Positions 8,604-25,680 of a stretch of 64,000 bases of DNA are shown one piece after another. The stretch lies in IMG/VR virus record IMGVR_UViG_3300021400_000141, positions 321,354 to 385,353 of that record; one strand, given 5' to 3'. Each line of letters starts with the position of its first letter. Position 1 is the stretch's first letter. The position numbers and the translations under genes are program-made. This stretch comes from a virus. Taxonomy: Duplodnaviria; Heunggongvirae; Uroviricota; Caudoviricetes. Under the pieces are notes generated by a model. The model worked only from the letters and a program-made list of their open reading frames with translations. It made no database searches and was not told the DNA's origin.

Positions 8604-8621
8604 GAAAAACATCTCCTTAAC

Positions 8622-8652
8622 GAAAAAACCGCCTTAATCGGCGGTCTTTTTT
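8622..8652. terminator. bidirectional rho-independent terminator
   Basis: hairpin accgcc-ttaatc-ggcggt flanked by an A6 run upstream and a T6 run downstream. Confidence 0.6.
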
Positions 8653-8857: not shown

Positions 8858-8924
8858 TGTATTTCCTTTTGTGTTTGATTTACTGTAATAATATAGTTAA
8901 TTTTACGAAAATGTCAAGTATTTA

Positions 8925-8954
8925 CTTGACAAGACGGATTTAATATGCTATATT
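8925..8954 (+). promoter_or_regulatory. sigma70-type promoter (TTGACA, 18 nt, TATATT)
   Basis: cTTGACAagacggatttaatatgcTATATTg upstream of queC. Confidence 0.5.
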
Positions 8955-8985
8955 GATGAAAAACAACATCAACAAAAGGTCTCAT

Positions 8986-9933
8986 ATGACAAAAGCAAAA
9001 AACACCAGAACTCTCAAAACGCTTAAACATATCGCTGACAACTTCGGGAAGGATAAGCGCAAGTCTGAAAAGAAGGAACATCTTCTTGACAAGATTATGG
9101 CCAAGAAGGAGGAAGAACTTGTGGATGTTTTGGACGAAGGCGAGTCTCCGATGGAAGACGTTATGCCCGAAAAGGAAGCTGAACCCGCACATGAAGTTGC
9201 CCCTAAGCCGCTTGACGTAAGGCCGATTACCAAGAAATTTGACGGGATTAAGCAGAATGTTGTTGTTTTCAGTGGTGGCTTTGACAGCACCTTGATTTTG
9301 GTTGACCTGCTTGAAAAGGGCATTAAACCCAGGTTGCTTACTTTCCAGTGCAGACAGTTTGGTGAAAACCGTCATTTCACTTCTGAAATTGCAGCCCAGG
9401 AAAAAATCCTCGAATATCTCGCCAAGAAGTACGACTACGAGCCGAACCGTGATTACATGAAGCTTGAAGGCGACATGATTGGTTGGACTGGTGCTGAACC
9501 GTCCCTGTTCCAGCAGCCATTTATGCTTTCGATGGTTTCTATGGGTGGCCGTAACAACGCTTGCTACCACTTCGGATATCATCGTGGCGACGATTTCTGG
9601 CACAGTTCTCACAATATACTTGCCGCACAGGAACACCTGCTTGCAGTGGCCGGCCAGAAGAACATCATGTTCAGCTTCCCCCTGCAGTTCTTGACCAAGG
9701 CTGACATTATCCGTAACCTGAACCATTACCACTTCCCGACCGAACTCTGCACTTTCTGCTATTCGCCGACCTACAAGGGACGTTGCGGACATTGCGTTGC
9801 TTGCCAGACGTACGAAAAGGCGATGTCCGAAATTGTGCATCTGTCTGGAACCTATGAAGGAATGTCCAACCAGTTGTACTATCCTGATGGGTTCATCGAA
9901 CAGACGAAGCACCGTTCAATGTGGGATGATTAA
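8986..9933 (+). CDS. queC: 7-cyano-7-deazaguanine synthase QueC-like (PP-loop ATPase) with a K/E-rich N-terminal extension
   Basis: PP-loop VVVFSGGFDSTLIL; C-terminal Zn site CGHCVACQ; start set at the ATG after aaaagg because the upstream TTG/ATG lies inside the promoter -10 region. Confidence 0.75.
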   Translation: MTKAKNTRTLKTLKHIADNFGKDKRKSEKKEHLLDKIMAKKEEELVDVLDEGESPMEDVMPEKEAEPAHEVAPKPLDVRPITKKFDGIKQNVVVFSGGFDSTLILVDLLEKGIKPRLLTFQCRQFGENRHFTSEIAAQEKILEYLAKKYDYEPNRDYMKLEGDMIGWTGAEPSLFQQPFMLSMVSMGGRNNACYHFGYHRGDDFWHSSHNILAAQEHLLAVAGQKNIMFSFPLQFLTKADIIRNLNHYHFPTELCTFCYSPTYKGRCGHCVACQTYEKAMSEIVHLSGTYEGMSNQLYYPDGFIEQTKHRSMWDD

Positions 9934-9951
9934 CAACAAAGAGAATTTGAA

Positions 9952-10914
9952 ATGGAAAAGAAACTAAATACATATACAAACGGAAACCACAAGGTGACCA
10001 TCTATTCCGATGGCACCAAAATCAAAGAAACAATCGACCCCAAGGCCGACCATTTCACTTATGATTTTCCAGAGAACTTCGACATTAAAATCACCGACCA
10101 GTGCGATGGCGGTTGCGTATATTGTCACGAAAACTCCACTGTGAATGGAAAGCATGGAGACCTTCGTGCTTTGGAACCGATGATTGCAACCCTGCATGCT
10201 GGTACGGAATGCGCTGTGGGCGGGGGCAACGCATTGGCTCACCCTGACCTCGTATGGTTCCTAGAACGCTTGAAGGAACAGGGTGTCATTGCGAACATCA
10301 CCATCAACCAGCGTCACCTGAGACCGTACAAGGACCTCATCTGCAAGATTGTAGGTGAAGGCCTTGTTCACGGAATTGGCATTTCGCTGACCGATGCAAG
10401 CAACAAGGACGACTTTGCGTTTATCGACACTCTCGGAAACAATGTTGTCATCCACACGATTGCGGGCATCCTTTCGGAAAACGATGTTGCCCCCCTGTTT
10501 GGCCGCAAGATTCTTATCCTTGGCTACAAGGACTTGCGTCGTGGTCACACTTTGCTCGAAAAGCAGTCCGAAGAAATCAAGGCGAACATCAAGTGGTTGC
10601 AGAGCCTGTTGGTACGGATTGGTTCAACCAATATCAATCCGTTCAAGGTAATCTCGTTTGACTGCCTCGGTATCGAACAGCTTAACCCGAAGGCGTTGCT
10701 CAACATTTCCGACGCCCGTTATGATACCCTGTTCCAGGGTTCTGACACGGATGTTATGGACGCTGACGGAAACATTGCCTGTGCGACAATGTACATCGAC
10801 GTTCCCAACATGCAGGTTGCCCGTATGAGCACAGCCGCTTTGGACAAGCGTTATCCGTTCACTGGAAAAGAAAACATTCACGACCTTCTTCAGATTACTA
10901 CACAAGGATGGTAA
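9952..10914 (+). CDS. radical SAM protein, QueE-like (7-carboxy-7-deazaguanine synthase family)
   Basis: CDGGCVYC (Cx3Cx2C) followed by a GGGNALAHP segment resembling QueE SGGNP; longer than typical QueE. Confidence 0.5.
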   Translation: MEKKLNTYTNGNHKVTIYSDGTKIKETIDPKADHFTYDFPENFDIKITDQCDGGCVYCHENSTVNGKHGDLRALEPMIATLHAGTECAVGGGNALAHPDLVWFLERLKEQGVIANITINQRHLRPYKDLICKIVGEGLVHGIGISLTDASNKDDFAFIDTLGNNVVIHTIAGILSENDVAPLFGRKILILGYKDLRRGHTLLEKQSEEIKANIKWLQSLLVRIGSTNINPFKVISFDCLGIEQLNPKALLNISDARYDTLFQGSDTDVMDADGNIACATMYIDVPNMQVARMSTAALDKRYPFTGKENIHDLLQITTQGW

Positions 10915-11364: not shown

Positions 11365-12078
11365 ATGAGAACAATCAGAATGAACGTGTTCGAAACCAAC
11401 TCGTCGTCCGAGCATGCTTTCAGTTATCCTAAGGGAACGGAACCTGCCCTACGCGACAAGTCGGAGTTCCCGCTGCCTGACGAGAACGGATTGCTCGAAA
11501 TCGAGCTGGATACTTTCTGGCAGTCTGGCAACCCGAAGTGCTACACTCACAATGTCAAGCGGATTATCCAGTATCTTGCCGCACATTCTGTATATTCCGT
11601 TCTTACAGAATGGAGAATTGACGGAGACAAGGGCGTTGTCTACAAGGTGCGGAAGGATATCAGGGAAAAGAACCATAAGGATTTCCTTGACCTGCTCAAT
11701 GGAGTGTATCAGGAGTTCGGTCTTCCCGAGATAAAGGACTACCGTTGCTATGCATTGACAGTGGATGGCGACAAGGTTGTCATCGATGGGGATGAACCGC
11801 AGGATTACAGGAACTGCGAGTTCGACCCTGCCGACATGGACCGTGACGAATACGATGCCATGGTAGCTAGGTTCCATGAGGATAGCGACTATCCCGAGTG
11901 CCCTAAGCTGGCCCATTACATTGGCATCTCTGGTAATTGCCTTACGGGAGACTCTTTCGCTGATGCGATGTCGTACTTTGGTCCAGAGGATTGGAGGGAC
12001 GACCTTGCGGGCAAGAAATACGACATGCCTCGTGACCTTCTCAGGAAACAAATGTCATTAACTTTCTGGCATAGCTAA
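11365..12078 (+). CDS. paralog family protein with N-terminus MKTIRxxVFETNSSSxH (member 2)
   Basis: MRTIRMNVFETNSSSEHAF; C-terminal region unrelated to member 1. Confidence 0.6.
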   Translation: MRTIRMNVFETNSSSEHAFSYPKGTEPALRDKSEFPLPDENGLLEIELDTFWQSGNPKCYTHNVKRIIQYLAAHSVYSVLTEWRIDGDKGVVYKVRKDIREKNHKDFLDLLNGVYQEFGLPEIKDYRCYALTVDGDKVVIDGDEPQDYRNCEFDPADMDRDEYDAMVARFHEDSDYPECPKLAHYIGISGNCLTGDSFADAMSYFGPEDWRDDLAGKKYDMPRDLLRKQMSLTFWHS

Positions 12079-13490: not shown

Positions 13491-13509
13491 TTTATTTAGA
13501 CTTTATCAA

Positions 13510-13540
13510 AGCGGATGGTGTGAAACTATCCGCTTTTTAT
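13510..13540 (+). terminator. rho-independent terminator
   Basis: agcggat ... atccgct hairpin followed by TTTTT. Confidence 0.6.
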
Positions 13541-13553: not shown

Positions 13554-14036
13554 ATGAAAACAATTAGATTAGGGGTATTTGAAACCAATTCTTCCTCGGC
13601 TCATGTGATGACTTATACCCAGAAGGACAAATGGGAAAGGTTCGTTGCAGGAGACCCTAACCTGATTTGGCTTCGTTACAACCCGATGGTTGATAATACT
13701 CCGTATGACAAGTGTGATAACATTGTCGAAGTCAAGGACTATGCAAAATACCTACGTGAGCATTATCCTGACGACTTTGGCGAGTTGTCGTTGGAGTTTA
13801 TCGAAACCTTTATACGGATTACCGTAAATCATAAAACCTCTGGTGGAAATCCAATCAGTGAGTTGCTCTATAAATTAGAGGACGACCACAAGGCAAGCAA
13901 CTATCAGGAACTGAAGGACCTCTCTGCCGACTTTACCGAAGTGGGTGACTCCGAATGGGACCGTTCCGAAGTCAAGGAAGTTGTCGAAGGTGACAAGACC
14001 TTCGTGAAAGCCCGTGCCGTATGGTTCGATGGTTAA
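13554..14036 (+). CDS. paralog family protein with N-terminus MKTIRxxVFETNSSSxH (member 3)
   Basis: MKTIRLGVFETNSSSAHVM; RBS agagga. Confidence 0.6.
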   Translation: MKTIRLGVFETNSSSAHVMTYTQKDKWERFVAGDPNLIWLRYNPMVDNTPYDKCDNIVEVKDYAKYLREHYPDDFGELSLEFIETFIRITVNHKTSGGNPISELLYKLEDDHKASNYQELKDLSADFTEVGDSEWDRSEVKEVVEGDKTFVKARAVWFDG

Positions 14037-14047: not shown

Positions 14048-14593
14048 ATGAGTCTCATCGACAGATTGTGGGAAGGTGTATGTGAAGGTGGGCCGTCTAT
14101 CCTAGCTTGTCATGAACGGATAATCGGCGGAATGGTCTATGCCTTTAAGAAGGCGTCTGAAACTGAAATAACTTTGGACGTATATTACGGAAATGACCAC
14201 TACGATTTTGGTGTGGTGTTCAGGTCGGTTGTAAATGACAAGGAGCACTCCCCGTGTGTGACCATGAAGTACCCACCGAAGGAAAAATACGAGTTCATCC
14301 ATGTTCAGGATGCTGTTGGAATGATTGGAACATCATTGCTTGGTGACTACAAGGAATGGAGTGATGATTCCATTAAACAGTGGGTTGAAAGCATGATTGA
14401 TGAGTACGGGAAGCTTGCCTCTTGGAGAATATGGGTTTCCAAGAAGTTCAAGGAACTGGAATCATCCCTGCTTGAACCTGACTGGAATATCGTAGCGGCA
14501 ATCACTAAGGAGATAAAAGCTCATTCCGACCTGATATTCAAACATGGACATGTCACATGTGAGGAAAGTCCCGAAGACGAGAGAGAGGGATAA
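14048..14593 (+). CDS. hypothetical protein immediately upstream of cas3
   Basis: RBS ggaggt; its stop lies 4 nt before the cas3 ATG, so probably co-transcribed. Confidence 0.5.
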   Translation: MSLIDRLWEGVCEGGPSILACHERIIGGMVYAFKKASETEITLDVYYGNDHYDFGVVFRSVVNDKEHSPCVTMKYPPKEKYEFIHVQDAVGMIGTSLLGDYKEWSDDSIKQWVESMIDEYGKLASWRIWVSKKFKELESSLLEPDWNIVAAITKEIKAHSDLIFKHGHVTCEESPEDEREG

Positions 14594-14597
14594 AAGC

Positions 14598-16838
14598 ATG
14601 AACCCGAACGACTTATTGGCGAAAAGTGATGGCACTACATTGATAGCTCATTCCAGAGCAGTAGCTGACATGGCAAAGAGAATTGCTGAAACACTTGGCT
14701 TCGATAGTGTGTTAACCGCACTATGCTATGTGGCCGGGCTTTTGCATGATATCGGCAAAGCAATATCACCTTTTCAGGAAATACTGCGTGAAAATGAGCA
14801 TGGGCCTGGTAAATTGAGCGACGATTGCAATGCTCGTCACAGTGCAGTAAGCGGATGGTTTATGGCTAACCATGCAGCAACGTTCGATAAGATGGTTCCT
14901 GGTGTGAATGGCAGAGCTAGTGAAATCTTGTGCCGTGCCGTTACATGGCACCACAAGCCATATTTTCCTGTTGAGGAAAGTCGGTTTGCGTACGATGAAC
15001 AGTTCGATGCAGAAATCAAGTCGTTTGTTGATGCACTCGTTGATAACCTTGATTGGAGCATTAGTTCTGACGATGATTTTGATTTTTCTGGTGGAGATTT
15101 TTCCTATTTCTATACAAGAAATCTTTCTGGTAAAATCAATTCTCGAATTCATGCTGTGAGGTCGGTAGTCATTCGTGCTGACTATCTTGTAAGTGGAGGT
15201 GTTTCCGAATACTCGATAAGTAAACTTGCACCTATTGATATTGATTCTATCGCATGCCCGATTGATTTCAATGCAGAGCGATTTGTATTTCAGCGAAACG
15301 AAATTGCAAAGAAAGCAATGGAATCTGGCAAGAAAACTGTTGTGATAAATGCACCCGCAGGTTTTGGAAAAACTATTATTGGTCTGCTTGCAGGACTTCA
15401 TCGAGGTGAAAAGATTTACTGGGTTGTTCCAAGAAACGTTATTGCCGAAGAAGTGTATCGTTCTATTTCGGATTTGCTGTCGATGTTGAATGTATCGGAA
15501 ACATATTCGTTGAACATGATTTTTGGCGGCAAGGTTCAGCTTGGCCCAGAAAATGCCGACATTACAGTAACTAACATTGATGCTATCTTGCAGCCGATGG
15601 GTCAACATGGAAATATGGGTTTGCAGTGTGATATGCTGAGTGGAACAATGATATTTGACGAATATCATGAACTGGTAGGAAATAGCCCGATGTGGTCGGC
15701 ATTTCTTATCCTCATGGCTGCAAGAATGGAGGCGAACGGTAGAAATATCCTCGTTTCGGCAACACCGTTAGATATCATGTCGTGTTTGAAAGTGAACCCT
15801 GATGATGTTCTGTATCTTCCAGGTAAGAACATCCATTACCAAGCACAGCATTCAGTTCCATACCATATCGAAACTGCTGACAGCATGCCCTCCTTGGTTA
15901 GTGGAGATAGCTTCGCTATCAGCAACTGCATTTCACGTGTGCAGAAAGTACAGTGTGGAATTATGTTTCATAGCAAGTATACTGACGAAGACAAAAACGG
16001 CATCATATCCCAATTATTGAATTCGTTCGGAAAGGGAAAGACCAATGTAGTCGATGGGGTATCAGCAGGCCCGATTTTGAGCACTTCGCTTGACCTATCG
16101 TGTACACATTTGTATGAAAGTGTATGCAGTCCTATGGATTCCATGCAGCGAATTGGGCGGTGTAACCGCTTTGGAAACAAAAGTGGATGCTCGGTAACCT
16201 TCGTGACTGGAAGCGTTCCAGGTGAACGAGATTATGTGGATATGAAATTTACGACGGAGCTTCGTTCAGAATGGTGTGACACTATCCGTCGGGAATTCAA
16301 TAAAAAAGATATTACTCTTGATGAAATGTATCGTTGCTACGATAAGTTCATGGAAGAAAATGCTGCCCGCATTAAAAGGTGGATGGTTGGTCTGCAACAA
16401 GAGAGCATTAACTGCCTCGTTACAAGCTGTGCCCCATGTGTCTTTGAAGTTGCTTTGCCGAAAAAGAACAAAGGCAAAAGCGGTGGTACTATACGAAACC
16501 CAGAACCAAATATGTACTACATAGTCCCATCTGCCGATGAGAAGACCTACTATGGGCCTTTCAGTATCGACATTGCCACGGCAAACGGGCCGAAGTATGG
16601 TAGAATATTCAGACAGGTGAACAACTTAACGGAATACGAAAAGGCCAAGCAGGCATCTCCTGCTCTTGTGAACGGAACGACAGAATATCTCTCTGGCGGA
16701 ACCCGTAAGAAACGGTGGTATAAGGAGAATGCAGACAAGTTGGCTAGAAACTCGGAAAGCCCGTTTGTCGTATCTGCTAGGTACATGACATACGACTCGT
16801 TCAATGGAGTTGTATTCAACTCGAATATGGAAGACTAA
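14598..16838 (+). CDS. cas3: Cas3 HD-nuclease/helicase (no Cas2 fusion)
   Basis: N-terminal HD motifs (LIAHSRAV, LLHDIGKA); helicase Walker A INAPAGFGKT, DExH box MIFDEYHE, SAT-like LVSATPL, motif VI QRIGRCNRFG. Confidence 0.85.
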   Translation: MNPNDLLAKSDGTTLIAHSRAVADMAKRIAETLGFDSVLTALCYVAGLLHDIGKAISPFQEILRENEHGPGKLSDDCNARHSAVSGWFMANHAATFDKMVPGVNGRASEILCRAVTWHHKPYFPVEESRFAYDEQFDAEIKSFVDALVDNLDWSISSDDDFDFSGGDFSYFYTRNLSGKINSRIHAVRSVVIRADYLVSGGVSEYSISKLAPIDIDSIACPIDFNAERFVFQRNEIAKKAMESGKKTVVINAPAGFGKTIIGLLAGLHRGEKIYWVVPRNVIAEEVYRSISDLLSMLNVSETYSLNMIFGGKVQLGPENADITVTNIDAILQPMGQHGNMGLQCDMLSGTMIFDEYHELVGNSPMWSAFLILMAARMEANGRNILVSATPLDIMSCLKVNPDDVLYLPGKNIHYQAQHSVPYHIETADSMPSLVSGDSFAISNCISRVQKVQCGIMFHSKYTDEDKNGIISQLLNSFGKGKTNVVDGVSAGPILSTSLDLSCTHLYESVCSPMDSMQRIGRCNRFGNKSGCSVTFVTGSVPGERDYVDMKFTTELRSEWCDTIRREFNKKDITLDEMYRCYDKFMEENAARIKRWMVGLQQESINCLVTSCAPCVFEVALPKKNKGKSGGTIRNPEPNMYYIVPSADEKTYYGPFSIDIATANGPKYGRIFRQVNNLTEYEKAKQASPALVNGTTEYLSGGTRKKRWYKENADKLARNSESPFVVSARYMTYDSFNGVVFNSNMED

Positions 16839-16876
16839 ATAAAGTATTTTGTAAATATAATTTTACATAATACGAC

Positions 16877-16904
16877 TTACATTCATGATTGAATTAACTA
16901 TATT
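16877..16904 (+). promoter_or_regulatory. possible internal promoter (TTACAT, 16 nt, TATATT)
   Basis: cTTACATtcatgattgaattaacTATATTtaat in the 98-bp AT-rich gap between cas3 and the next gene. Confidence 0.3.
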
Positions 16905-16936
16905 TAATATCAAATCAAACACAAAAGGAAATAAAT

Positions 16937-17965
16937 ATGATTAAACAGATTCCAACAATCAAACTTCATGTCACGTTCAAGGGTCAGGGAATAGTCAACT
17001 ATGACGGCAAAGACCAGAAGCAGGTTATTTTGGACACCAAAGCAATTACACTTCCTCGTGATAATCAAGGGAAAGTTCGTGATAACCTTAAAATTGCCAA
17101 GGCCACGTATGCCATTGATGGTGATGGAAACGTAAAACGCTCTGTAAAGGTGTCTTCAGATTGTATTCGTCAGGCCATTTTCAGATTAAAACATAACCCG
17201 AACATTGTTTTTAGCCCAGTATTGTTTAACGACTGGATTTCATCAAAGACAGCGCTAGTGAGAGGATATTTTTTTCCAAAAGATGGGGGAAATGCGGCTA
17301 GCCGAAAGAGCCCTCTGACCGTGCTTGATGCACTAGAAGTAAGTGGGCAGATTTCCACGTTTAACGTTCATAGTAACAGCGGTGCTCGTACCGACAATAG
17401 TCTGTACTATGTGGAAGAGATTGGGGAAACCCGTTTCGAAAACGACATGTATATCGACCTTTCTGAACTTAAGCATATCGTGTTATCTGACACATACGGT
17501 AGAAACAGTGTGTTTTCTGACGGTGAAGAATCCCTTGTTGCAAAGCTCCGTGAAAAGTACGGTGTAGTCACAACAGGGTTTTTCCGCATGGATGGAGAAA
17601 CTGTGGAGGTTCCTGAATACGGGGCGGAAATCTCTGATGAAGCAGTTGTGTCTATTGTACGGGATTTGATTGACCATATAAAGCAGTTACATATCAACCG
17701 TTCTAACGCATACCTGGAATGTGATACCATTGAGGTGTTTGCATTCGAAAACGGTGCGTGGATTCCTATGGATGAAAAGAGCAACTTTACTGTCAAAAGT
17801 AGTTATGTTCTCATTGAAGACCAAGACGGTGCAAAAACGCTTCATGACGATGTATGTGACAAGGCAAATCAGGGACAGACTGCCCGCAAAGAAGCAAAGA
17901 AAGAAGAAGCCGCAAAGAAAGCTGCAAAGAAAGCTGCCAAAAAAGCAGCAAAGGACAATACATAG
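16937..17965 (+). CDS. putative Cascade subunit A (Cas5/Cas8-like or Cas7-like) with Lys/Ala-rich C-terminal tail
   Basis: position between cas3 and cas6; 342 aa; C-terminal AKKEEAAKKAAKKAAKKAAK; no confident motif match. Confidence 0.4.
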   Translation: MIKQIPTIKLHVTFKGQGIVNYDGKDQKQVILDTKAITLPRDNQGKVRDNLKIAKATYAIDGDGNVKRSVKVSSDCIRQAIFRLKHNPNIVFSPVLFNDWISSKTALVRGYFFPKDGGNAASRKSPLTVLDALEVSGQISTFNVHSNSGARTDNSLYYVEEIGETRFENDMYIDLSELKHIVLSDTYGRNSVFSDGEESLVAKLREKYGVVTTGFFRMDGETVEVPEYGAEISDEAVVSIVRDLIDHIKQLHINRSNAYLECDTIEVFAFENGAWIPMDEKSNFTVKSSYVLIEDQDGAKTLHDDVCDKANQGQTARKEAKKEEAAKKAAKKAAKKAAKDNT

Positions 17966-17967
17966 CC

Positions 17968-18912
17968 ATGGCGTTTCTTGACCTGACAATTAAACTTACC
18001 GATGGTAAGCGGTTTCGGGCGGCAGACCGAATTAATCAAAATAGTACAGATTTTAAGTCGAGTAATATTCATGACGATTGCCCTGATGATACAATCCCTA
18101 TAACATCTGTTGCAAACATCCTCGCTAAACTGTCTGGTCATCGTCCATGGAAGCGTAATGACATTGAACTAGGAAAGGTTCCTATTAGTTTCTCCCGTTT
18201 CATGAATATGGCAAATCGGTCTCGTGTGGAGATATTCACTGTAGGTGGAAACAAGGAACTTATGCGAAGTTCAAAGGCATCCCATTCTGGTACAAAACAA
18301 ACGTGGAAACTTAGACTTGACGGCAATCTGTTTCCTATAGTGCGTAACTTACCTACTTATGAAACCATCCAAGCAGTACTCCCTGAGGTAGACTGGAAAA
18401 ACTTGGAGGCAATGCTCATAAACCTGTTTGGCTCAGATTACCGTACCAACTTGACCTCAGGAGCGACATCTGCTGCAGCGATGATTGAGAATCTCCGTAA
18501 AGAATATCTGCGTGGCAACAAAGAGGTTATTGCATTTTGCGAATACTACAAGAATACATCGACCAAACTTCGTGATTTGCTTATTGTCCCGCTGACAACA
18601 GGTTCTCCAGTCCGAGATGGTAAAAAATACAAGGTATTCCGCATTGACAGTCCAATAGGAAAGACTTCTGTAGAAAGGCTTTTACATAACAAGACAAATA
18701 CCCACGGCATTCTCATGGCTCAGGTAGTTTCTGGTGTTTTGCATGTCAAAATTGCCGAGAGTGAATTGGAGATGTTTCGTAACGGTCCAGGATTTGCCAC
18801 ATTCCTAGACGGAGGTGTGGCAGAAATTGAAACGCTTGACCTTGACTACTGGCAAAGTGAAACCGATAGCTTACCGAATCCGTTTATATCAAAAACAACA
18901 AAACAGGAGTAA
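17968..18912 (+). CDS. putative Cascade subunit B (Cas7-like or Cas5-like)
   Basis: 314 aa; starts 2 nt after the stop of the preceding gene; position matches the I-F variant layout cas5fv-cas7fv-cas6f. Confidence 0.4.
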   Translation: MAFLDLTIKLTDGKRFRAADRINQNSTDFKSSNIHDDCPDDTIPITSVANILAKLSGHRPWKRNDIELGKVPISFSRFMNMANRSRVEIFTVGGNKELMRSSKASHSGTKQTWKLRLDGNLFPIVRNLPTYETIQAVLPEVDWKNLEAMLINLFGSDYRTNLTSGATSAAAMIENLRKEYLRGNKEVIAFCEYYKNTSTKLRDLLIVPLTTGSPVRDGKKYKVFRIDSPIGKTSVERLLHNKTNTHGILMAQVVSGVLHVKIAESELEMFRNGPGFATFLDGGVAEIETLDLDYWQSETDSLPNPFISKTTKQE

Positions 18913-18917
18913 CCTAT

Positions 18918-19472
18918 ATGCGAACTGTATTCTACTGCACTATTCATCATGACCATAAGGCTACCCACAACGATATTCACAAAAAGATAACAGCCATTTA
19001 CCAACAATCCCCTGGCCCTCGTTGGTGTAGCAACGGCTCGGTTGTTGAGGTTGTTAGCGATAAAATGCCTATACGTTGCGACCAGGTTTCATCTGTTCGT
19101 GAAGTTAGTGTGCCTACTGGGTTACTTACACTATCGTTTCAGTACCCTGCAATACGTCGTAGCAATGATGGTAAGAAGGAGCATGTAAAGATATACGATT
19201 CCCCTGCTATTGCAAAAAAACAAATTTCTGAGAAGGTATGCACCCGTCTGAGCGAACTTGGAATGTCTGATGTTCGTATAGTGGAATATGTACACAACGT
19301 ATGTCGTCTTGACTTGCATGACCGTAAGAATGGTATATCAAAAGTTCCCGTGTCGTTCATCGTTGCCAAGTGCGTTTGTGCAGATGAGGATAAAGTACGA
19401 CATCTTATGGTGAACGGAATAGGAAAGTTCCGCTTCGCAGGCCTCGGGATGATTTATGTAACAGAAGGGTAA
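18918..19472 (+). CDS. cas6: Cas6-family CRISPR repeat endoribonuclease (Cas6f-sized)
   Basis: 184 aa; C-terminal glycine-rich loop GIGKFRFAGLG (GhGxxxxxGhG); its stop codon directly abuts the first CRISPR repeat. Confidence 0.7.
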   Translation: MRTVFYCTIHHDHKATHNDIHKKITAIYQQSPGPRWCSNGSVVEVVSDKMPIRCDQVSSVREVSVPTGLLTLSFQYPAIRRSNDGKKEHVKIYDSPAIAKKQISEKVCTRLSELGMSDVRIVEYVHNVCRLDLHDRKNGISKVPVSFIVAKCVCADEDKVRHLMVNGIGKFRFAGLGMIYVTEG

Positions 19473-19925
19473 GTTTCCCGTGCATACGGGAATTGAAATG
19501 AATACAAAGCCCTATCTTATTCATTGAAAATATGTTTCCCGTGGGAGCGGGAATTGAAACTTTGCACTCGTCCCTCGTAATGGGTTTTCAAAATGTTTCC
19601 CGTGAATACGGGAATTGAAAGAGCGCACTTGTTCCTCGGAATGGGTTTATACAATGTTTCCCGTGTGTTCGGGAATTGAAACGAATACGATACCTGGCTA
19701 CGACAGAGCTACAATGTTTCCCGTGTTTGCGGGAATTGAAAGAGATACGTGTGAGGGTTTCCCCATTCTCCAGTAGGTTTCCCGTGTTTGCGGGAATTGA
19801 AACTCATATTGGACCTCGCCGTTTACGATGTCGAAAGGTTTCCCGTGTGTGCGGGAATTGAAACGATACATTGACAGACCCGAAACATTGGGACGAATGT
19901 TTCCCGTTTATGCGGGAATTAAAAA
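19473..19925 (+). CRISPR. CRISPR array, 8 repeats and 7 spacers, type I-F-like hairpin repeat
   Basis: repeats (ATGTTTCCCGTG-NNNN-CGGGAATTGAAAC) start at 19473, 19534, 19595, 19656, 19716, 19777, 19838 and 19899 with 60-61 bp periodicity; 6-bp stem TTCCCG/CGGGAA with a variable 6-nt loop; unique 32-34 nt spacers; last repeat degenerate (..CGGGAATTAAAAA). Confidence 0.9.
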
Positions 19926-19954
19926 AGCCCACACCATTAAGGTGTTGGCTTTCT
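19921..19954. terminator. bidirectional rho-independent terminator shared by the CRISPR array and clpX
   Basis: aaaaaa-agcccacacc-attaa-ggtgttggct-ttct; 9/10 bp stem; the A6 on plus gives a T6 for the minus-strand clpX transcript. Confidence 0.65.
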
Positions 19955-19966: not shown

Positions 19967-21214
19967 TTATGATGCTTTCCGTTCTTGTATATTGAAGTGT
20001 TCCATCACCATGTCTTGCGTGATGTGGATTTCCTTCTGTTCGCTGTCGGGGCCCATGAACATTGCGTTATGGAGCAACTCTTCGACGATTGAACGGAGGC
20101 CACGAGCGCCCGTATGACGGTCGATTGTCAGCCTTGCGATTTCACCAAGGGCTTCTTCGTCGAGCGTGAGTTTAATGCCGTCAAGTTCGAGGAGTTTTGT
20201 GTACTGCTTGATGATGGCATTCTTCGGTTCGGTCAGGATGCGACGGAGGGCTTCTTCGTCAAGTTCATCGAGTGCGACGGTAACGGGAAGTCGTCCCACA
20301 AGTTCAGGCATGAGGCCGAACTTCACGAGGTCATCGGGTTCGCACTTATCGAAGAGTTCACTGAGGCTCTTCTTTTCCTTATTGTGGATGGTGGCACCGA
20401 ATCCCATGCCGCCACTCTCGGTACGCTCGGAAATGATGTCTTCCAGCCCCTCGAACGCTCCACCGCAGATGAAGAGGATGTTCCTCGTGTCAATTGAAAT
20501 AAGTTTCTGCTCGGGGTGCTTTCGTCCGCCCTGCGGATTGATTTTAGCCTCGGTTCCTTCCAGGAGTTTCAACAGTCCCTGCTGAACACCTTCGCCAGAA
20601 ACGTCTCGGGTGATAGATGGGTTGGAACTCTTCCTTGCAATCTTGTCGATTTCGTCGAGGAAGATGATGCCGTGTTCAGCGGCGATAGCGTCCATGTCTG
20701 CAGCTTGGAGGAGACGGGAGATGATGCTGTCCACATCTTCGCCCACGTAGCCTGCCTCGGTAAGGACGGTTGCATCGGCGATTGCGAACGGCACGTCGAG
20801 CATCTTGGCGATAGCCCTTGCGAGCATCGTCTTTCCGCAACCAGTCGGGCCCACGAGGAGGACATTAGACTTCTCGATTTCCACATCGTCGTCCGAACGG
20901 ATTGCGTTGTAGTCCAGACGCTTGTAATGGTTGTACACGGCGATAGAAAGGGCTTCCTTGGCCTTGTCCTGACCGATTACGAACTGGTCGAGGTGTTCCT
21001 TAATCTTGTGCGGGGATGGCAGAGCAGCGGCTTTCTTTGGCTTAGGTTCCTTGAGCATGGGGGATTTTGCACCCATCATGCTACTGGCGAGCTTGACGCA
21101 GTCTTCGCAAATCGTTGCGTACATTCCGCTTACGGCCTTCGCTGTAGGTGCAAGGGGCTTTCCGCAGAAGCTGCAAGCAGGGGTAGTTTCTTGTGTAGGT
21201 TTTTTAGTTGCCAT
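19967..21214 (-). CDS. clpX: ATP-dependent Clp protease ATP-binding subunit ClpX
   Basis: N-terminal zinc-binding domain CSFCGK...CEDC; Walker A LLVGPTGCGKT; IIFLDEIDKIARK; full-length ClpX architecture (415 aa). Confidence 0.9.
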   Translation of the reverse strand: MATKKPTQETTPACSFCGKPLAPTAKAVSGMYATICEDCVKLASSMMGAKSPMLKEPKPKKAAALPSPHKIKEHLDQFVIGQDKAKEALSIAVYNHYKRLDYNAIRSDDDVEIEKSNVLLVGPTGCGKTMLARAIAKMLDVPFAIADATVLTEAGYVGEDVDSIISRLLQAADMDAIAAEHGIIFLDEIDKIARKSSNPSITRDVSGEGVQQGLLKLLEGTEAKINPQGGRKHPEQKLISIDTRNILFICGGAFEGLEDIISERTESGGMGFGATIHNKEKKSLSELFDKCEPDDLVKFGLMPELVGRLPVTVALDELDEEALRRILTEPKNAIIKQYTKLLELDGIKLTLDEEALGEIARLTIDRHTGARGLRSIVEELLHNAMFMGPDSEQKEIHITQDMVMEHFNIQERKAS

Positions 21215-23850: not shown

Positions 23851-24531
23851 ATGTCTTTTATCAAAAACAAATTCCGTGCGCTGTACATGGCAGCGTTTAT
23901 CATCTTCACCGTCATCTTCACCATCATGATGCCTGACGGCCATACGGCGATGTGGTTCGCAATGCTCACCGCACTTCTGGGAACGATATCCACCGTGATG
24001 TTCGCACAGAAGAACATCTGGGCTTACGTACCCAGTTTCGTGTTCAACTTCATGTATATGTACATCTGTTGGGAAAGCCGTCTGTGGCTTGAATTTGGCG
24101 AATACATTTTCTACAACGTGACTATGGTTTATGGTGTCTACGCATGGTACAAGCAGCTCGAAAAGGACAAGACTCACGTTATCCCGAAGAGGCTGTCCCC
24201 CAAGGCGTGGGTCGCTTCCATTATTGCCACCATCATCCTTACGGTCGGCTTCGGTACATTCGATAAGTTTGTTCTGGACGGTGCAGTTCCGTACATGGAT
24301 GCGTTAAGCATCAGCTTCACTGTTATCGCCCAGATTCTCATTGTCACTTGTTACCGTGAACAGTGGTTCTTCTGGTTTGTTCTTGACGCAATTTCCATTG
24401 TTACGTTCGCACTGATTGGCGAATGGGCAATGGTTGCAATGTATGTGTGCTGGTTCATCAACACCATCTACGGATGGATTGAATGGTCTCATAACGAGAA
24501 GAAACTCGAAACGGACACCGTGGAGGATTAA
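23851..24531 (+). CDS. pnuC: nicotinamide riboside transporter PnuC
   Basis: multi-TM 226-aa protein; VYGVYAWYKQ matches the PnuC IYGWYAW signature; stop overlaps the nadR ATG. Confidence 0.75.
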   Translation: MSFIKNKFRALYMAAFIIFTVIFTIMMPDGHTAMWFAMLTALLGTISTVMFAQKNIWAYVPSFVFNFMYMYICWESRLWLEFGEYIFYNVTMVYGVYAWYKQLEKDKTHVIPKRLSPKAWVASIIATIILTVGFGTFDKFVLDGAVPYMDALSISFTVIAQILIVTCYREQWFFWFVLDAISIVTFALIGEWAMVAMYVCWFINTIYGWIEWSHNEKKLETDTVED

Positions 24532-25680
24532 ATGTTTGGCGACGTGATTAACAACATCTGCGGTGCGCCTCGTGAATACGGGGTTGTGCTCGGGTCTTTC
24601 AGCCCGATGCACACAGGTCATCTTGACCTCGTAATGGCAGCGAAGAAGCTCTGCTCTAAGGGCGCTATCATTGCCGTTTGCGGTCTTGATGGTGACCGTG
24701 GCACGAGAATCGGTCTCCCTATTGAACGCCGCTATGAAATCATCAAGAAGATGTTTGAAGGCGACCCGCTTGTACACGTCGTCATGATGAAGGATAACGA
24801 TATCGGCATCGCAGGTTACATGGACAAGTGGGCTGAATGGTTGGAAGCCCTAAGCTATAAAATAGCTGAAGTCGTGTATGGCAATGCTGATATTAGCAAG
24901 AGAAAGTGCATGAAATTGCTTCAACGCACGACTGTCTTTACTGGTGAAGAGTCGTACAGACAGGCAATCATGTCGTTGGTGATGAAGGGCCCTAATGTGT
25001 TCCAGTTGTCCAGGAAATTGAATACGATTTCTGCGACAAAGATACGAAAGCAACCGATGAAGTATTGGGACGAAATCATTGGGTATGAGTTCAAGGCTCA
25101 GTTCGCCAAGCGTGTCTTGATTATCGGTACGGCATCGGAAGGAAAGTCTACTCTCACGAAAGACCTTGCACGATATTTCGATGCGGGTTGCACCGAGGAG
25201 TATGGACACACGTATATTGCCGATGTGAATGGTGAAACCCCACATCCAGACGATACCAAGCTGACCTACGATGACTACATCCGTTTCCTTGACGAACAGT
25301 ATCGTGTCAACTCGGCAAGCTGGCATAAGGTTAACATCTGTGACAGTGACGCAATGACGACGCTCATGTATGCCAAATACTATTCGATGGATGACAGGTA
25401 TGCCATCACCGAAGAAGATTACAAGCGTATCGAAGCGCATGCAAAGTTCCTGAAGTACGATGCAATCTTTGTTCTTCCACCGAAGAAGGACAGTTGGGTG
25501 CAGGACGGCAGCAGGGATTGCCTCACCAACAGTTTCGAAGACCGTAAGAAGCAGTACCAGGTATTGATGAGCATTATCGGACAGCACTACTGCACCGAAG
25601 ATATCGTTTACCTGAACGGCACTTATCACGAGAACTTCATGAGGGCCAGAGACAAAATCAAGAGTTTGCTTTCTGACTAG
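24532..25680 (+). CDS. nadR: bifunctional NMN adenylyltransferase / ribosylnicotinamide kinase (NadR-like, no HTH)
   Basis: N-terminal HxGH nucleotidyltransferase motif GSFSPMHTGH; C-terminal Walker A GTASEGKST. Confidence 0.75.
   Translation: MFGDVINNICGAPREYGVVLGSFSPMHTGHLDLVMAAKKLCSKGAIIAVCGLDGDRGTRIGLPIERRYEIIKKMFEGDPLVHVVMMKDNDIGIAGYMDKWAEWLEALSYKIAEVVYGNADISKRKCMKLLQRTTVFTGEESYRQAIMSLVMKGPNVFQLSRKLNTISATKIRKQPMKYWDEIIGYEFKAQFAKRVLIIGTASEGKSTLTKDLARYFDAGCTEEYGHTYIADVNGETPHPDDTKLTYDDYIRFLDEQYRVNSASWHKVNICDSDAMTTLMYAKYYSMDDRYAITEEDYKRIEAHAKFLKYDAIFVLPPKKDSWVQDGSRDCLTNSFEDRKKQYQVLMSIIGQHYCTEDIVYLNGTYHENFMRARDKIKSLLSD

What the first reader, a model, noticed from the sequence alone, without database searches (positions are those of the whole stretch)
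14048..19954. Compact type I CRISPR-Cas locus without adaptation genes in a phage-like genome (cas3, two Cascade-like genes, cas6, array)
The locus is a contiguous operon ending in an 8-repeat CRISPR array.
- Cas3: HD-helicase with HD motifs, Walker A GFGKT, DEYH box and QRIGRCNR.
- Two mid-sized proteins of 342 and 314 aa, which I call putative Cascade subunits. Neither has a confident motif match.
- Cas6: 184 aa with a C-terminal GhGxxxxxGhG loop.

No cas1, cas2 or cas4 is present anywhere in the window. Cas3 is not fused to Cas2. The gene layout, the Cas6f-sized nuclease, and the repeat (about 28 nt, hairpin plus an 8-nt 3' tail, about 32-nt spacers) resemble minimal type I-F variants (Cas5fv/Cas7fv/Cas6f). 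The Cas3 differs from the I-F Cas2-3 fusion. The flanks are phage-like: dense small ORFs, strong sigma70-type early promoters, tRNAs, and anti-defence-type genes. So this is probably a phage-borne interference-only CRISPR-Cas system used against competing mobile elements or the host. The exact subtype may be undescribed.
Basis: partly seen in the sequence, partly recalled or inferred. Interest (0 to 1): 0.92.

Follow-up and report, generated by a model that had tools for sequence, protein, structure and literature searches.

The report
Phage-borne minimal CRISPR-Cas3, I-E/I-Fv hybrid
A roughly 419-kb rumen or gut phage carries a four-gene, interference-only CRISPR-Cas3 system with a small fixed set of seven guides; it mixes parts of two known subtypes (I-E and I-Fv) in a combination I could not find described, although phage CRISPR systems without adaptation genes are already known.

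Summary
Window 14598-19925 holds cas3, a cas7fv-like gene, a 314-aa gene in the cas5 position, cas6, and 8 repeats with 7 spacers. No cas1, cas2 or cas4 was found in about 81 kb of a 419,315-bp ORFan-dense contig.

The subtype call needs correcting:
- Cas3 and Cas7 are I-Fv-like.
- The 184-aa protein has a Cas6e (Cse3) fold, not a Cas6f fold.
- The repeat has E. coli I-E geometry (29 nt, 7-bp stem, 61-nt period).
- Cas3 has no Cas2 domain.
- The 314-aa protein fails all Cas5fv tests except a weak N-terminal motif.

Related metagenomic elements, some from the same samples, carry the same module plus a Cas1e and long arrays of uniform repeats. So the adaptation-less state here is a derived loss.

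The array looks functional rather than decaying. All 14 repeat substitutions avoid the stem core and the handle. The hairpin covaries. The cas genes show purifying selection. Some spacers are shared between diverged lineages.

No target was found for any spacer.

Verdict: a new variant of a known kind (huge-phage, adaptation-less type I CRISPR-Cas). Interest is moderate to high.

The parts
14598..16838 (+). cas3: stand-alone HD nuclease plus SF2 helicase, 746 aa (764 aa if the upstream in-frame ATG at 14544 is used); no Cas2 domain
   Evidence: Pfam HD, DEAD, ResIII, Cas3-like_C_2 and Cas3_HD. PADLOC Cas3fv 3.3e-53 is the best hit, against Cas3e 1.8e-21. PDB 9g44_A 1.8e-32. It aligns to residues 109-839 of a 994-aa I-Fv Cas2/3, with the HD, motif I, II and VI residues conserved.
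16937..17965 (+). cas7 (Cas7fv-like backbone subunit, 342 aa) with a C-terminal Lys/Ala-rich tail
   Evidence: NCBIfam NF040577 Cas7fv 3.5e-25 (89 bits, below the 200-bit cut-off). PADLOC Cas7fv 1.6e-18 and Cas7f 6.4e-15. PDB 5o6u_C Cas7fv 1.5e-11. Relatives carry the precomputed Pfam PF28157 Cas7fv-like mark.
17968..18912 (+). 314-aa protein in the cas5 position (putative Cas5; not demonstrated)
   Evidence: No Pfam, NCBIfam or PADLOC hit. The AF2 model is poor (pLDDT 44), so its fold search is meaningless. A profile search finds about 50 clusters of ~300-aa relatives. Where context was available, these lie between a Cas7fv-like gene and a Cas6e-like gene. hhalign against Cas5fv gives probability 4.5%, aligning only the Cas5-type N-terminal helix motif. 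It has a C-terminal glycine-rich loop, FRNGPGFATFLDGG.
18918..19472 (+). cas6: Cas6e (Cse3)-like double-RRM endoribonuclease, 184 aa; the stop codon overlaps the first repeat
   Evidence: AF2 pLDDT 86. Foldseek PDB top 24 hits are all Cse3/Cas6e or I-E Cascade Cas6e chains, best 2y8y 1.8e-8, TM 0.66. PADLOC type IV-A3 Cas6 6.6e-7 and Cas6e 0.041. His21 and the G-rich loop are invariant in 12 homologues. No similarity to the Cas6f of an I-Fv locus.
19471..19925 (+). CRISPR array: 8 repeats and 7 spacers. Each repeat is 28 conserved nt, ATGTTTCCCGTGnnnGCGGGAATTGAAA, plus a variable 29th nt. Repeats start at 19471, 19532, 19593, 19654, 19714, 19775, 19836 and 19897. With a 29-nt repeat the spacers are 31-32 nt: 19500-19531, 19561-19592, 19622-19653, 19683-19713, 19743-19774, 19804-19835, 19865-19896. 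There is no leader. R8 has a degenerate handle.
   Evidence: The predicted hairpin is 4 nt + 7-bp stem + 4-nt loop + 7 nt, the same as the E. coli I-E repeat. Covariation count. The array is identical in 5 independent metagenome contigs apart from one loop base.
19926..19954 (.). Bidirectional intrinsic terminator-like hairpin shared by the array and the convergent clpX homologue (19967-21214, - strand)
   Evidence: A terminator-like site on the - strand at 19945-19931 followed by a T run. Read on the + strand from the sequence: AGCCCACACC-ATTAA-GGTGTTGGCT-TTCT. The Rfam Thr_leader sub-threshold hit is this hairpin. It is conserved after the array in L007 and L016.
14048..14593 (+). 181-aa ORF of unknown function immediately upstream of cas3.
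   Evidence: No family hit. It is present, with the 160-aa ORF at 13554-14036, upstream of cas3 in the syntenic phages L001-L008. It is absent from the loci of L011, L013 and L019-L021. A terminator-like hairpin at 13508-13536 precedes the pair.

Best explanation

**Proposed mechanism**
1. The operon (possibly starting after the terminator-like hairpin at 13508-13536) is transcribed through cas3, cas7, the cas5-like gene and cas6 straight into the leaderless array. It stops at the hairpin at 19926-19954.
2. The Cas6e-like protein binds each 7-bp repeat hairpin and cuts at its 3' base. This yields seven crRNAs, each with a 7-8-nt 5' handle (A)UUGAAAN, a ~32-nt guide and a 3' hairpin.
3. These crRNAs assemble with about six Cas7fv-like subunits, one copy of the 314-aa Cas5-position protein and Cas6. 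The result is a Cascade without Cas8 or Cas11, as in type I-Fv.
4. After PAM-dependent R-loop formation on double-stranded DNA, the stand-alone HD-helicase Cas3 is recruited and degrades the target.

**Evolutionary reading**
- The system is chimeric at subtype level. The effector and nuclease genes are I-Fv-like. The crRNA-processing enzyme, the repeat and (in relatives) Cas1 are I-E-like.
- This lineage has lost cas1, a possible cas2 and the leader that its relatives keep.
- It keeps a small, slowly evolving guide set, part of which is shared with diverged sister phages.

**What is shown and what is inferred**
- Shown: gene identities except Cas5, the repeat structure, the absence of adaptation genes within 81 kb, sequence conservation and selection, and the existence of Cas1-bearing relatives.
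- Inferred: complex stoichiometry, the cleavage site, PAM dependence, DNA degradation, and that the targets are competing mobile elements or host DNA.
For: - **Gene identities.**
- **Catalytic motifs.** The Cas3 HD and helicase motifs are intact and align with Cas2/3fv.
- **Repeat hairpin.** 99.4% of cells paired, with compensatory changes in 3 of 7 pairs. Its geometry is identical to E. coli I-E.
- **Selection on the repeats.** In repeats R1-R7, all 14 substitutions relative to the uniform repeat of the Cas1-bearing relative fall at position 2, the loop, or the loop-closing base. None falls in stem positions 5-10/17-22 or handle positions 23-28. By my arithmetic, (10/28)^14 is about 5e-7 if substitutions were spread evenly.
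- **Selection on the proteins.** For cas5, window vs L007, nucleotide identity is 0.77, 0.84 and 0.55 at codon positions 1, 2 and 3.
- **Shared spacers.** One spacer is 33/33 identical in L007, L016 and L030, although cas6 four-fold sites are only 57-59% identical between L007 and the other two. Window S2 is 32/33 identical to L030 S6.
- **Stability.** The same array occurs in five samples.
- **Cas1-bearing relatives.** L013 has Cas1e at PADLOC 1e-54 and at least 27 uniform repeats. L018-L021 and L032 have a Cas1 that matches E. coli Cas1e at 3e-26 but Cas1f at only 2e-11.
- **Phage context.** The contig is 419,315 bp. Relatives are on 418-kb and 406-kb contigs. A relative is held in IMG/VR. 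Only 28 Pfam families hit 111 ORFs. The region also has tRNAs, a NUMOD3 motif, and NadR/PnuC, RtcB and QueC-like genes.
Against: - No protospacer was found for any of the seven spacers, so neither the target nor a PAM is known. Searches covered GenBank phages, PLSDB plasmids, IMG/VR, GTDB genomes, JGI metagenomes, the window itself and all fetched loci.
- The Cas5 assignment rests on position, size and weak motifs only.
- No phage hallmark gene (capsid, terminase, portal) was seen in the 81 kb inspected.
- About 338 kb of the contig was not inspected and could hold cas1/cas2 or another array.
- No promoter could be assigned.
- Window spacer S1 has diverged from its homologue about as much as neutral sites have (26/33 vs 0.72-0.84 at four-fold sites), so not every spacer shows constraint.
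Confidence: 0.75

Rival explanations
1. It is simply a member of the known type I-F2 (I-Fv) subtype, as in Shewanella putrefaciens, that has lost cas1 and the Cas2 domain.
For: The gene order cas3-cas7-cas5-cas6-array is the same as in canonical I-Fv plasmid loci. The best hits of Cas3 and Cas7 are Cas3fv and Cas7fv. There is no Cas8 or Cas11 gene.
Against: Cas6 has the Cas6e fold and no similarity to Cas6f. The repeat is 16/28 identical to the I-E repeat and 12/27 to the I-Fv repeat, with I-E hairpin geometry and a 61-nt period rather than 60. Relatives use Cas1e, not Cas1f. Cas7 scores 89 bits against a 200-bit equivalog cut-off. The NCBIfam and PADLOC scans, which name Cas7fv and Cas3fv, return no hit for the 314-aa protein, and NCBI annotation does name canonical Cas5fv.
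Confidence: 0.12
2. The locus is a decaying remnant. After cas1 was lost, the array and genes drift and no longer act.
For: The loop bases differ between repeats and the last repeat is degenerate. The array is short and has no leader. No targets were found. Window S1 has diverged at about the neutral rate.
Against: All four ORFs are intact in several lineages separated by saturating synonymous divergence, with third codon positions much more diverged than first and second positions. Repeat substitutions avoid the stem and handle completely. Several spacers are conserved beyond neutral expectation. The Cas3 catalytic motifs are intact.
Confidence: 0.06
3. The system acts on the host rather than on competitors. 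Hard-wired guides direct Cas3 to conserved host chromosomal or defence-island DNA (host shut-off or counter-defence, as with ICP1 against PLE), or they act by repression.
For: Guides are fixed across samples and partly conserved across diverged phage lineages, which fits a conserved target. In the S1 pair, 6 of 7 differences fall in one codon phase. In the S2/S3 pair, all 3 differences in the conserved core do. By my arithmetic these give p of about 0.02 and 0.11, suggesting protein-coding targets with synonymous variants. Precedents are reported in PMC7162821 and PMC11656645.
Against: Degenerate-pattern scans of 185,579 species-representative genomes for S1 and S2/S3 found nothing. Spacer GC tracks the GC of the carrying element, which fits related phages as targets. 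Surveys report phage spacers mostly hitting other phages (PMC13037316, PMC7162821).
Confidence: 0.2
4. The region is part of a bacterial chromosome or a large plasmid, not a phage, and the system is ordinary host immunity.
For: One relative protein is deposited under a Bacteroidaceae MAG name. No capsid, terminase or portal gene was seen in the 81 kb inspected. ClpX, LemA, TPM and SPFH genes are also common in bacteria.
Against: 111 ORFs average about 165 aa, and only 28 Pfam families hit at E<=1e-4. Three independent assemblies give 406-419-kb contigs. A near relative is an IMG/VR viral genome. The gene content is typical of huge phages: tRNAs, RtcB, NadR/PnuC, QueC-like plus radical SAM, dUTPase, a NUMOD3 endonuclease motif and a methyltransferase. 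No adaptation genes and a 7-spacer array are atypical for host immunity.
Confidence: 0.05

Closest known systems
Type I-F2 (I-Fv) CRISPR-Cas of Shewanella putrefaciens CN-32 and of Legionella/Acinetobacter plasmids (PDB 5o6u, 9g44; PMC4937334)
   Same: A minimal Cascade without Cas8 and Cas11. The gene order is cas3-cas7-cas5-cas6-array. Cas7 and the Cas3 helicase-nuclease are homologous (E 1.5e-11 and 1.8e-32 to the solved structures). The repeat ends in ...GAAA.
   Different: - Cas3 has no N-terminal Cas2 domain and is about 250 aa shorter.
- Cas6 is Cas6e-fold, not Cas6f.
- The repeat hairpin and the 61-nt period are I-E-like.
- The Cas5-position protein is not recognisably Cas5fv.
- Relatives carry Cas1e, not Cas1f.
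- Cas7 has a Lys/Ala-rich tail.
- The system is phage-borne and lacks adaptation genes.
Type I-E CRISPR-Cas (E. coli K-12 casABCDE-cas1-cas2)
   Same: A Cas6e-type endoribonuclease. A 29-nt repeat with a 7-bp stem and 4-nt loop, and 61-nt spacing. The last repeat base is variable, as if PAM-derived. Cas3 is a stand-alone HD-helicase. Relatives have Cas1e.
   Different: There is no Cas8e (Cse1) and no Cas11 (Cse2). Cas7 and Cas3 are closer to the I-Fv proteins. The handle sequence (AUUGAAAN) differs from AUAAACCG.
Adaptation-less CRISPR-Cas loci of huge phages (Al-Shayeb et al. 2020, PMC7162821; jumbo-phage survey PMC13037316)
   Same: It sits on a phage genome larger than 200 kb, has no Cas1/Cas2/Cas4, and has a compact array (the reported median is six repeats). 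The presumed use is against competing phages or host functions.
   Different: The type I example detailed in that paper is a I-C variant with a helicase in place of Cas3. I did not find this I-E/I-Fv gene combination in the papers I could read. The 2022 Cell survey could not be read.
Vibrio phage ICP1 type I-F system (PMC10161043)
   Same: A phage-encoded type I system with a compact Cascade lacking a Cas11-like element, which depends on Cas3 for target destruction.
   Different: ICP1 has Cas1, a Cas2/3 fusion, Cas8f (Csy1) and Cas6f. It acquires spacers, and its target (PLE) is known.
Type IV-A3 plasmid systems (bioRxiv 10.1101/2023.06.23.546257)
   Same: An element-borne class 1 system without its own adaptation genes. 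Its Cas6 and repeats are I-E-like, and it acquires spacers in trans from I-E Cas1-Cas2. The best PADLOC hit of the 184-aa protein is the IV-A3 Cas6 model.
   Different: Type IV uses DinG and Csf proteins and has no Cas3. Here an intact Cas3 and a Cas7fv-like backbone are present.

Membership tests
Type I CRISPR-Cas (class 1) | Cas3 with an HD nuclease and an SF2 helicase | tested here: met
   Pfam HD, DEAD, ResIII and Cas3 C-terminal domains. NCBIfam cas3_HD at 65 bits, above its 43-bit cut-off. Catalytic motifs align with Cas2/3fv.
Type I CRISPR-Cas (class 1) | Cascade RAMP subunits (Cas7, Cas5) plus a Cas6 and a repeat-spacer array | tested here: inconclusive
   Cas7 is met. Cas6 is met by fold. 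The array is met. Cas5 is not demonstrated.
Type I-F2 / I-Fv | Cas7fv backbone subunit | tested here: inconclusive
   It is homologous (NF040577 E 3.5e-25; 5o6u_C 1.5e-11), but at 89 bits it is far below the 200-bit equivalog cut-off. Relatives fall in Pfam 'Cas7fv-like' PF28157.
Type I-F2 / I-Fv | Cas5fv with an inserted helical domain that replaces Cas8 | tested here: inconclusive
   No HMM hit. A profile against the PDB found nothing. hhalign against two Cas5fv sequences gave probability 4.5%. The only confident part of the AF2 model is a helical segment at 130-210, flanked by predicted strands, which is compatible but not diagnostic.
Type I-F2 / I-Fv | Cas6f (Csy4) endoribonuclease | tested here: not met
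   The Foldseek top hits are all Cas6e/Cse3. BLASTP against the Cas6f of an I-Fv locus gives E 2.5.
Type I-F2 / I-Fv | Cas2-Cas3 fusion protein | tested here: not met
   The alignment starts at residue 109 of the 994-aa Cas2/3fv, so no Cas2 domain is present.
Type I-F2 / I-Fv | 28-nt I-F repeat (GTTCACYGCCG...GAAA) with 32-nt spacers, period 60 | tested here: not met
   The period is 61. Identity is 12/27 to the I-Fv repeat and 16/28 to the I-E repeat. The stem is 7 bp against 5 bp.
Type I-F2 / I-Fv | No Cas8 and no Cas11 gene | tested here: met
   Only four genes lie between the upstream ORFs and the array. The two upstream ORFs have no hits and are not conserved with the module.
Type I-E | Cas6e (Cse3) and a 29-nt repeat with a 7-bp stem and 61-nt period | tested here: met
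   A remote relative's Cas6 carries Pfam PF08798.
Type I-E | Cas8e (Cse1) and Cas11 (Cse2) subunits | tested here: not met
   No such genes are in the locus and no hits to them were found.
Type I-E | Cas7e and Cas5e | tested here: not met
   The best hits of Cas7 are Cas7fv and Cas7f, and no Cas7e model was reported. The 314-aa protein hits no Cas5e model.
Type I-E | Cas1e-Cas2e adaptation module | tested here: not met
   It is absent from the window and flanks. Cas1e is present in the relatives L013, L018-L021 and L032. An 82-aa ORF after cas1 resembles Cas2e only non-significantly.
Huge-phage adaptation-less CRISPR-Cas (Al-Shayeb 2020) | Located on a phage genome larger than 200 kb | tested here: inconclusive
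   The contig is 419,315 bp, its content is ORFan-dense and phage-like, and a relative is in IMG/VR. No structural hallmark gene was seen in the 81 kb inspected.
Huge-phage adaptation-less CRISPR-Cas (Al-Shayeb 2020) | Lacks Cas1/Cas2/Cas4 and has a compact array | tested here: met
   within 81 kb. The array has 8 repeats.

The most novel reading that the evidence does not exclude
The locus represents an undescribed, subtype-level lineage of type I CRISPR-Cas that sits between I-E and I-F2. It combines a Cas8/Cas11-less Cascade with Cas6e, an I-E-type repeat, Cas1e and a stand-alone Cas3. It circulates among rumen or gut huge phages and smaller mobile elements. In several phage lineages it has been reduced to a 5.3-kb, four-protein (1,586 aa) interference module with a hard-wired, selectively maintained guide set against a conserved but still unidentified target. 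That guide set may be refreshed in trans or by recombination from Cas1-bearing relatives in the same community.
Probability: 0.4. Interest if true: 0.72.

Novelty: new variant of a known kind. Interest (0 to 1): 0.6.

Why it matters
- **Classification.** If the chimeric architecture is real and undescribed, it adds a link between subtypes I-E and I-F. It would show that the Cas8/Cas11-less 'minimal Cascade' solution is not confined to the Shewanella-type I-Fv systems.
- **Biotechnology.** It offers one of the most compact Cas3-based effectors known: four genes, about 5.3 kb. That is relevant for long-range deletion tools.
- **Biology.** A phage that keeps a fixed, partly conserved set of guides after discarding adaptation points to a stable adversary, either a competitor phage, a satellite or a host locus. 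Such an adversary could be identified and tested.
- **Method.** The pattern of loop drift with stem and handle conservation is a simple sequence signature. It separates functional adaptation-less arrays from decaying ones.

Tried and rejected
- **Spacer targets: all searches negative.**
  - BLAST of the array against GenBank phages and PLSDB plasmids.
  - Exact or degenerate pattern scans for S1, S2/S3, S5, S6 and S7, and for one spacer of the Cas1-bearing relative, in IMG/VR.
  - Scans for S1 and S2/S3 in GTDB genomes and in JGI metagenomes.
  - A self-match search in the window with up to 9 mismatches.
  - All 80 unique spacers against all fetched loci.
  - These scans need near-exact matches, so diverged targets would be missed.
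- **Fold of the 314-aa protein.** The AF2 model was too poor (pLDDT 44) and the Foldseek result is noise.
- **Sequence and profile tests of the 314-aa protein against Cas5fv.** All were negative or inconclusive: the PDB profile, NCBIfam on 51 remote relatives, and hhalign.
- **Rfam.** No CRISPR repeat family matched. The only hit is the terminator hairpin, mis-scored as Thr_leader below threshold.
- **Promoter scan.** It gave nothing above chance. If the host is a Bacteroidota member, the sigma-70 consensus used would not apply anyway.
- **PHROGs.** Ten large unknown ORFs were scanned and one hit a family of unknown function.
- **GenBank phages and plasmids.** tblastn of Cas3 against phages found only a 22%-identity match in Listeria phage records, and Cas7 against plasmids found nothing.
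- **The search for related loci.** The distant alignment failed for lack of conserved columns.
- **Literature.** The 2022 Cell survey of virus-encoded CRISPR-Cas could not be retrieved.
- **Rejected idea.** I considered that conserved spacer ends (…AT at the 3' end, a variable C-rich first base) meant a longer repeat or non-CRISPR units. The uniform arrays of the Cas1-bearing relatives show that the repeat simply starts with AT and that the 29th base is variable.

Full report
**1. What is in the sequence**

Between 14.0 and 20.0 kb the + strand carries a tight gene row.
- Two small ORFs of unknown function lie at 13554-14036 and 14048-14593.
- A 746-aa Cas3 follows at 14598-16838 (764 aa from an upstream ATG).
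- Next come a 342-aa ORF (16937-17965), a 314-aa ORF (17968-18912) and a 184-aa ORF (18918-19472).

The stop codon of the last ORF overlaps the first of eight direct repeats spaced 60-61 nt apart. A terminator-like hairpin follows the last repeat. It is shared with a convergent clpX homologue.

**2. Identity of the proteins**

- **Cas3.** It has the HD, DEAD/ResIII and Cas3 C-terminal domains. Its best PADLOC model is Cas3fv (3.3e-53), ahead of Cas3b and Cas3e. It matches PDB chain 9g44_A at 1.8e-32. That entry also holds a chain named Cas7 (9g44_F) matching this Cas7 at about the same E-value as Cas7fv 5o6u_C. Against a canonical 994-aa I-Fv Cas2/3 from a Legionella plasmid it aligns from residue 109 to 839. 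The HD, motif I, II, III and VI residues are conserved. So it lacks the Cas2 domain and part of the C-terminus.
- **The 342-aa protein.** It is a Cas7fv homologue (NCBIfam NF040577 3.5e-25, 5o6u_C 1.5e-11). It is divergent, at 89 bits against a 200-bit cut-off. Its relatives carry the Pfam mark 'Cas7fv-like'.
- **The 184-aa protein.** It gave a confident AlphaFold model (pLDDT 86). All its best PDB matches are Cse3/Cas6e, free or inside I-E Cascade (best 1.8e-8, TM 0.66). It has no similarity to the Cas6f of a real I-Fv locus. His21 and the C-terminal glycine-rich loop are invariant in the family.
- **The 314-aa protein.** It stays unassigned.
  - It has no HMM hit, a poor model (pLDDT 44), a meaningless fold search and no PDB profile hit.
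  - hhalign against Cas5fv gives probability 4.5%. Only the N-terminal 'T-h-x-x-V-x-x-h-L-x-x-L-x-G' helix typical of Cas5 aligns.
  - A full HMMER scan of 1.84 billion representatives found about 50 clusters of ~300-aa relatives.
  - In the three contexts I could see, these lie between a Cas7fv-like and a Cas6e-like gene. One further contig (L015) has only the downstream Cas6e-like gene identifiable.
  - Position, size, a glycine-rich C-terminal loop and a helical middle segment fit a Cas5fv-like subunit. This is inference.

**3. The array**

Arrays of Cas1-bearing relatives fix the repeat boundaries. The repeat is 28 invariant nt, ATGTTTCCCGTGTGTGCGGGAATTGAAA, followed by a variable, C-rich 29th base. 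Spacers are about 32 nt.

The predicted fold is 4 nt, a 7-bp stem, a 4-nt loop and 7 nt. This is exactly the geometry of the E. coli K-12 I-E repeat, which I fetched for comparison. That repeat also has a 61-nt period. Ungapped identity is 16/28 to the I-E repeat and 12/27 to the I-Fv repeat. The canonical I-Fv array has a 60-nt period and a 5-bp stem. Over 25 repeat variants the hairpin is paired in 99.4% of cells, with compensatory changes in three pairs. All slid controls collapse.

Within the window, the loop bases differ from repeat to repeat. All 14 substitutions in R1-R7 fall at position 2, in the loop, or at the loop-closing base. None touches stem positions 5-10/17-22 or the handle. 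Chance would give this with p of about 5e-7 (my arithmetic). I read this as neutral drift in an array that is no longer homogenised by spacer acquisition, combined with purifying selection on what Cas6 and Cas5 must recognise.

**4. Context: a huge phage**

The exact Cas7 protein occurs on ENA contig NODE_150 of 419,315 bp, and the window maps to roughly 324.85-388.85 kb of it. Relatives sit on contigs of 418,090 and 405,834 bp. One relative is on a 174.8-kb IMG/VR viral contig.

A simple gene call gives 114 ORFs in 64 kb, averaging about 165 aa. Of the 111 outside the cas genes, only 28 Pfam families hit at E<=1e-4. What is recognisable is typical of huge-phage accessory regions:
- two tRNAs and RtcB;
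- NadR plus PnuC;
- a QueC-like protein plus a radical SAM enzyme;
- UDP-galactopyranose mutase, ClpX and an SPFH protein;
- a DNA methyltransferase, a NUMOD3 endonuclease motif and dUTPase.

No capsid, portal or terminase gene lay in the 81 kb I could inspect. The phage assignment is therefore strong but not proven. One relative protein is deposited under a Bacteroidaceae MAG name. That is a hint to the host or a binning artefact.

**5. Adaptation genes**

No Cas family appears among the listed Pfam or PADLOC hits of the 111 ORFs, nor in the precomputed Pfam marks on the flanks. The array starts at the cas6 stop codon, so there is no leader.

The wider family does have adaptation genes.
- A 406-kb phage contig (L013) carries Cas3fv-like, Cas7fv-like, Cas5-position, Cas6e-like and Cas1e genes (PADLOC 1e-54). 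About 250 nt further on there are at least 27 uniform repeats.
- A smaller element of 42-46 kb (L018-L021, L023; also L032) has proteins 62-66% identical to those here. It carries a cas1 directly after cas6 and an array with at least 26 spacers. Its repeat is identical to window repeat R7 from position 3 onward (R7 has G for T at position 2).
- That Cas1 matches E. coli Cas1e at 3e-26 and Cas1f at only 2e-11.
- This element occurs in two of the same samples as the window's phage (ERZ27257202 and JGI 3300028833).
- An 82-aa ORF after its cas1 aligns end to end with E. coli Cas2, but not significantly.

So the interference-only state here is a derived loss. A compatible Cas1 exists in the same communities.

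**6. Evolution of the guide set**

The array is identical in five independent assemblies apart from one loop base. In sister phage lineages without cas1 (L007, L016, L030) the arrays differ but share units.
- One spacer is 33/33 identical in all three, although cas6 four-fold degenerate sites are only 57-59% identical between L007 and the other two. Neutral expectation is about 0.58^33, roughly 2e-8 (my arithmetic).
- Window spacer S1 is its homologue at 26/33. Six of the seven differences fall in one codon phase.
- Window S2 equals L030 S6 at 32/33.
- Window S2 and S3 are paralogues. Their conserved core differs only at three positions spaced by multiples of three, and both read ALVPRNGF in one frame.

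cas6 plus the array is 93-94% identical at protein level to L016 and L030, while cas5 is only 67-71% identical. So recombination shuffles the cas6-array module between lineages. Third codon positions of cas5 and cas6 are much more diverged than first and second positions, which shows purifying selection on the proteins. Together these points argue that the system is in use and that at least part of the guide set is maintained by selection.

**7. Targets**

None was found. The searches are listed under 'tried and rejected'. They were near-exact scans of public collections and would miss diverged protospacers and data that are not indexed. Spacer GC tracks the GC of the carrying element in every lineage. 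That weakly favours related phages as targets. Published surveys report that huge-phage spacers often hit other phages and sometimes host genes (PMC7162821, PMC13037316).

**8. Comparison with what is known**

- Phage-encoded CRISPR-Cas without Cas1/Cas2/Cas4 and with compact arrays is established for huge phages (PMC7162821; review PMC11656645).
- The minimal Cas8/Cas11-less Cascade is established for I-Fv (PMC4937334; PDB 5o6u).
- Adaptation-less element-borne systems with I-E-like Cas6 and repeats that borrow I-E Cas1-Cas2 are established for type IV-A3 (bioRxiv 10.1101/2023.06.23.546257).

What I did not find described is this combination: I-Fv-like Cas3/Cas7 (and presumably Cas5) with Cas6e, an I-E-type repeat, Cas1e in relatives, and an unfused Cas3. 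The membership tests fail for I-F2 on Cas6f, the Cas2-3 fusion and the repeat. They fail for I-E on Cas8e, Cas11 and Cas7e. None of the family's proteins carries a name in the databases searched. There are no relatives in GenBank phages or PLSDB. I could not read the 2022 Cell survey of virus-encoded systems, so prior description cannot be excluded.

**9. Verdict**

The finding is real and the general interpretation holds: a phage-borne, interference-only type I CRISPR-Cas. The subtype assignment should change from 'minimal I-F variant with Cas6f' to 'I-E/I-Fv chimeric, Cas8-less variant with Cas6e and a stand-alone Cas3'. I rate it a new variant of a known kind. Interest is 0.6. It is not a new principle. 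It is a compact, apparently undescribed architecture with clear signs of function, an informative evolutionary series from Cas1-bearing to Cas1-less forms, and a conserved guide set whose target is an open and testable question.

Noticed in passing
window 17907-17953 (C-terminus of cas7, 16937-17965): Cas7 ends in a Lys/Ala-rich tail (AAKKAAKKAAKKAAK) encoded by a 12-nt tandem repeat. A similar basic tail is present in the Cas7 of the Cas1-bearing relative (L018). It might compensate for the missing Cas8/Cas11 DNA contacts.
   Followed up: no
window 11365-12078 and 13554-14036: Two paralogous ORFs (237 and 160 aa) share an N-terminal M(K/R)TIR..VFETNSSS(A/E)H motif and have no family hit. One sits two genes upstream of cas3 and is syntenic in the sister phages, but it is absent from other loci of the family.
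   Followed up: partly
window 17968-19925 compared with L016 and L030: There is a recombination mosaic. cas6 is 93-94% identical at protein level to L016 and L030, while the adjacent cas5-position gene is only 67-71% identical. So the cas6-array module is exchanged between phage lineages.
   Followed up: partly
L018 316-1379 (- strand); L019 11606-14348; L020; L021; L032: A 42-46-kb element from the same samples carries the same module plus a Cas1e and an array with at least 26 spacers and uniform repeats. Two of its spacers share a 20-mer with different flanks. An 82-aa ORF after cas1 looks Cas2e-like but is not significant, and it runs into the first repeat, leaving almost no leader.
   Followed up: partly
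L011 8927-14741 / L012: Another relative has a different gene order: cas7, cas5, cas6, an array of about 13 repeats (some degenerate), then cas3. It has higher GC (55.6%) and sits next to an NAD-dependent DNA ligase and a Tad6-family gene. No cas1 is in the flanks.
   Followed up: no
window 23851-26980 and tRNA-Leu(UAA) at 25692-25768: A PnuC transporter, a NadR-like NMN adenylyltransferase/kinase, tRNA-Leu and RtcB RNA ligase lie in a row. This is a plausible NAD+ salvage and tRNA-repair counter-defence cluster. RtcB is 397 aa here but 711 aa in the syntenic phage L007, possibly because of an intein or insertion.
   Followed up: no
window 7017-10914: This stretch holds UDP-galactopyranose mutase, a QueC-like protein and a radical SAM enzyme. 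They may be involved in nucleotide or DNA modification or in sugar chemistry.
   Followed up: no
window 19967-21214 (- strand): A full-length ClpX homologue with its zinc finger is convergent with the CRISPR array and shares its terminator. It is conserved at this position in all syntenic phages.
   Followed up: no
all arrays (window, L007, L011, L013, L016, L019): Mean spacer GC follows the GC of the carrying element (for example 44% vs 45.5% here, and 54% vs 53% in L019). This suggests targets of similar composition.
   Followed up: no
window 19465-19480 and L017 (- strand, about 150-165): The cas6-array junction sequence GGGTAAGTTTCCCG recurs at a degenerate repeat in the trailer of the Cas1-bearing relative's long array. 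This may be coincidence or a trace of how the leaderless arrangement arose.
   Followed up: no
window 35-616 (-), 31481-32428 (-), 36251-37057 (-), 50644-50719: Other content of the window: an ORF with a NUMOD3 motif (homing-endonuclease type), an SPFH/Band 7 protein, an N6/N4 DNA methyltransferase and tRNA-Arg(CCG). PADLOC also reported IetA-like and mad2-like hits and Pfam a PTH2 peptidyl-tRNA hydrolase, each for one unlocated ORF.
   Followed up: no
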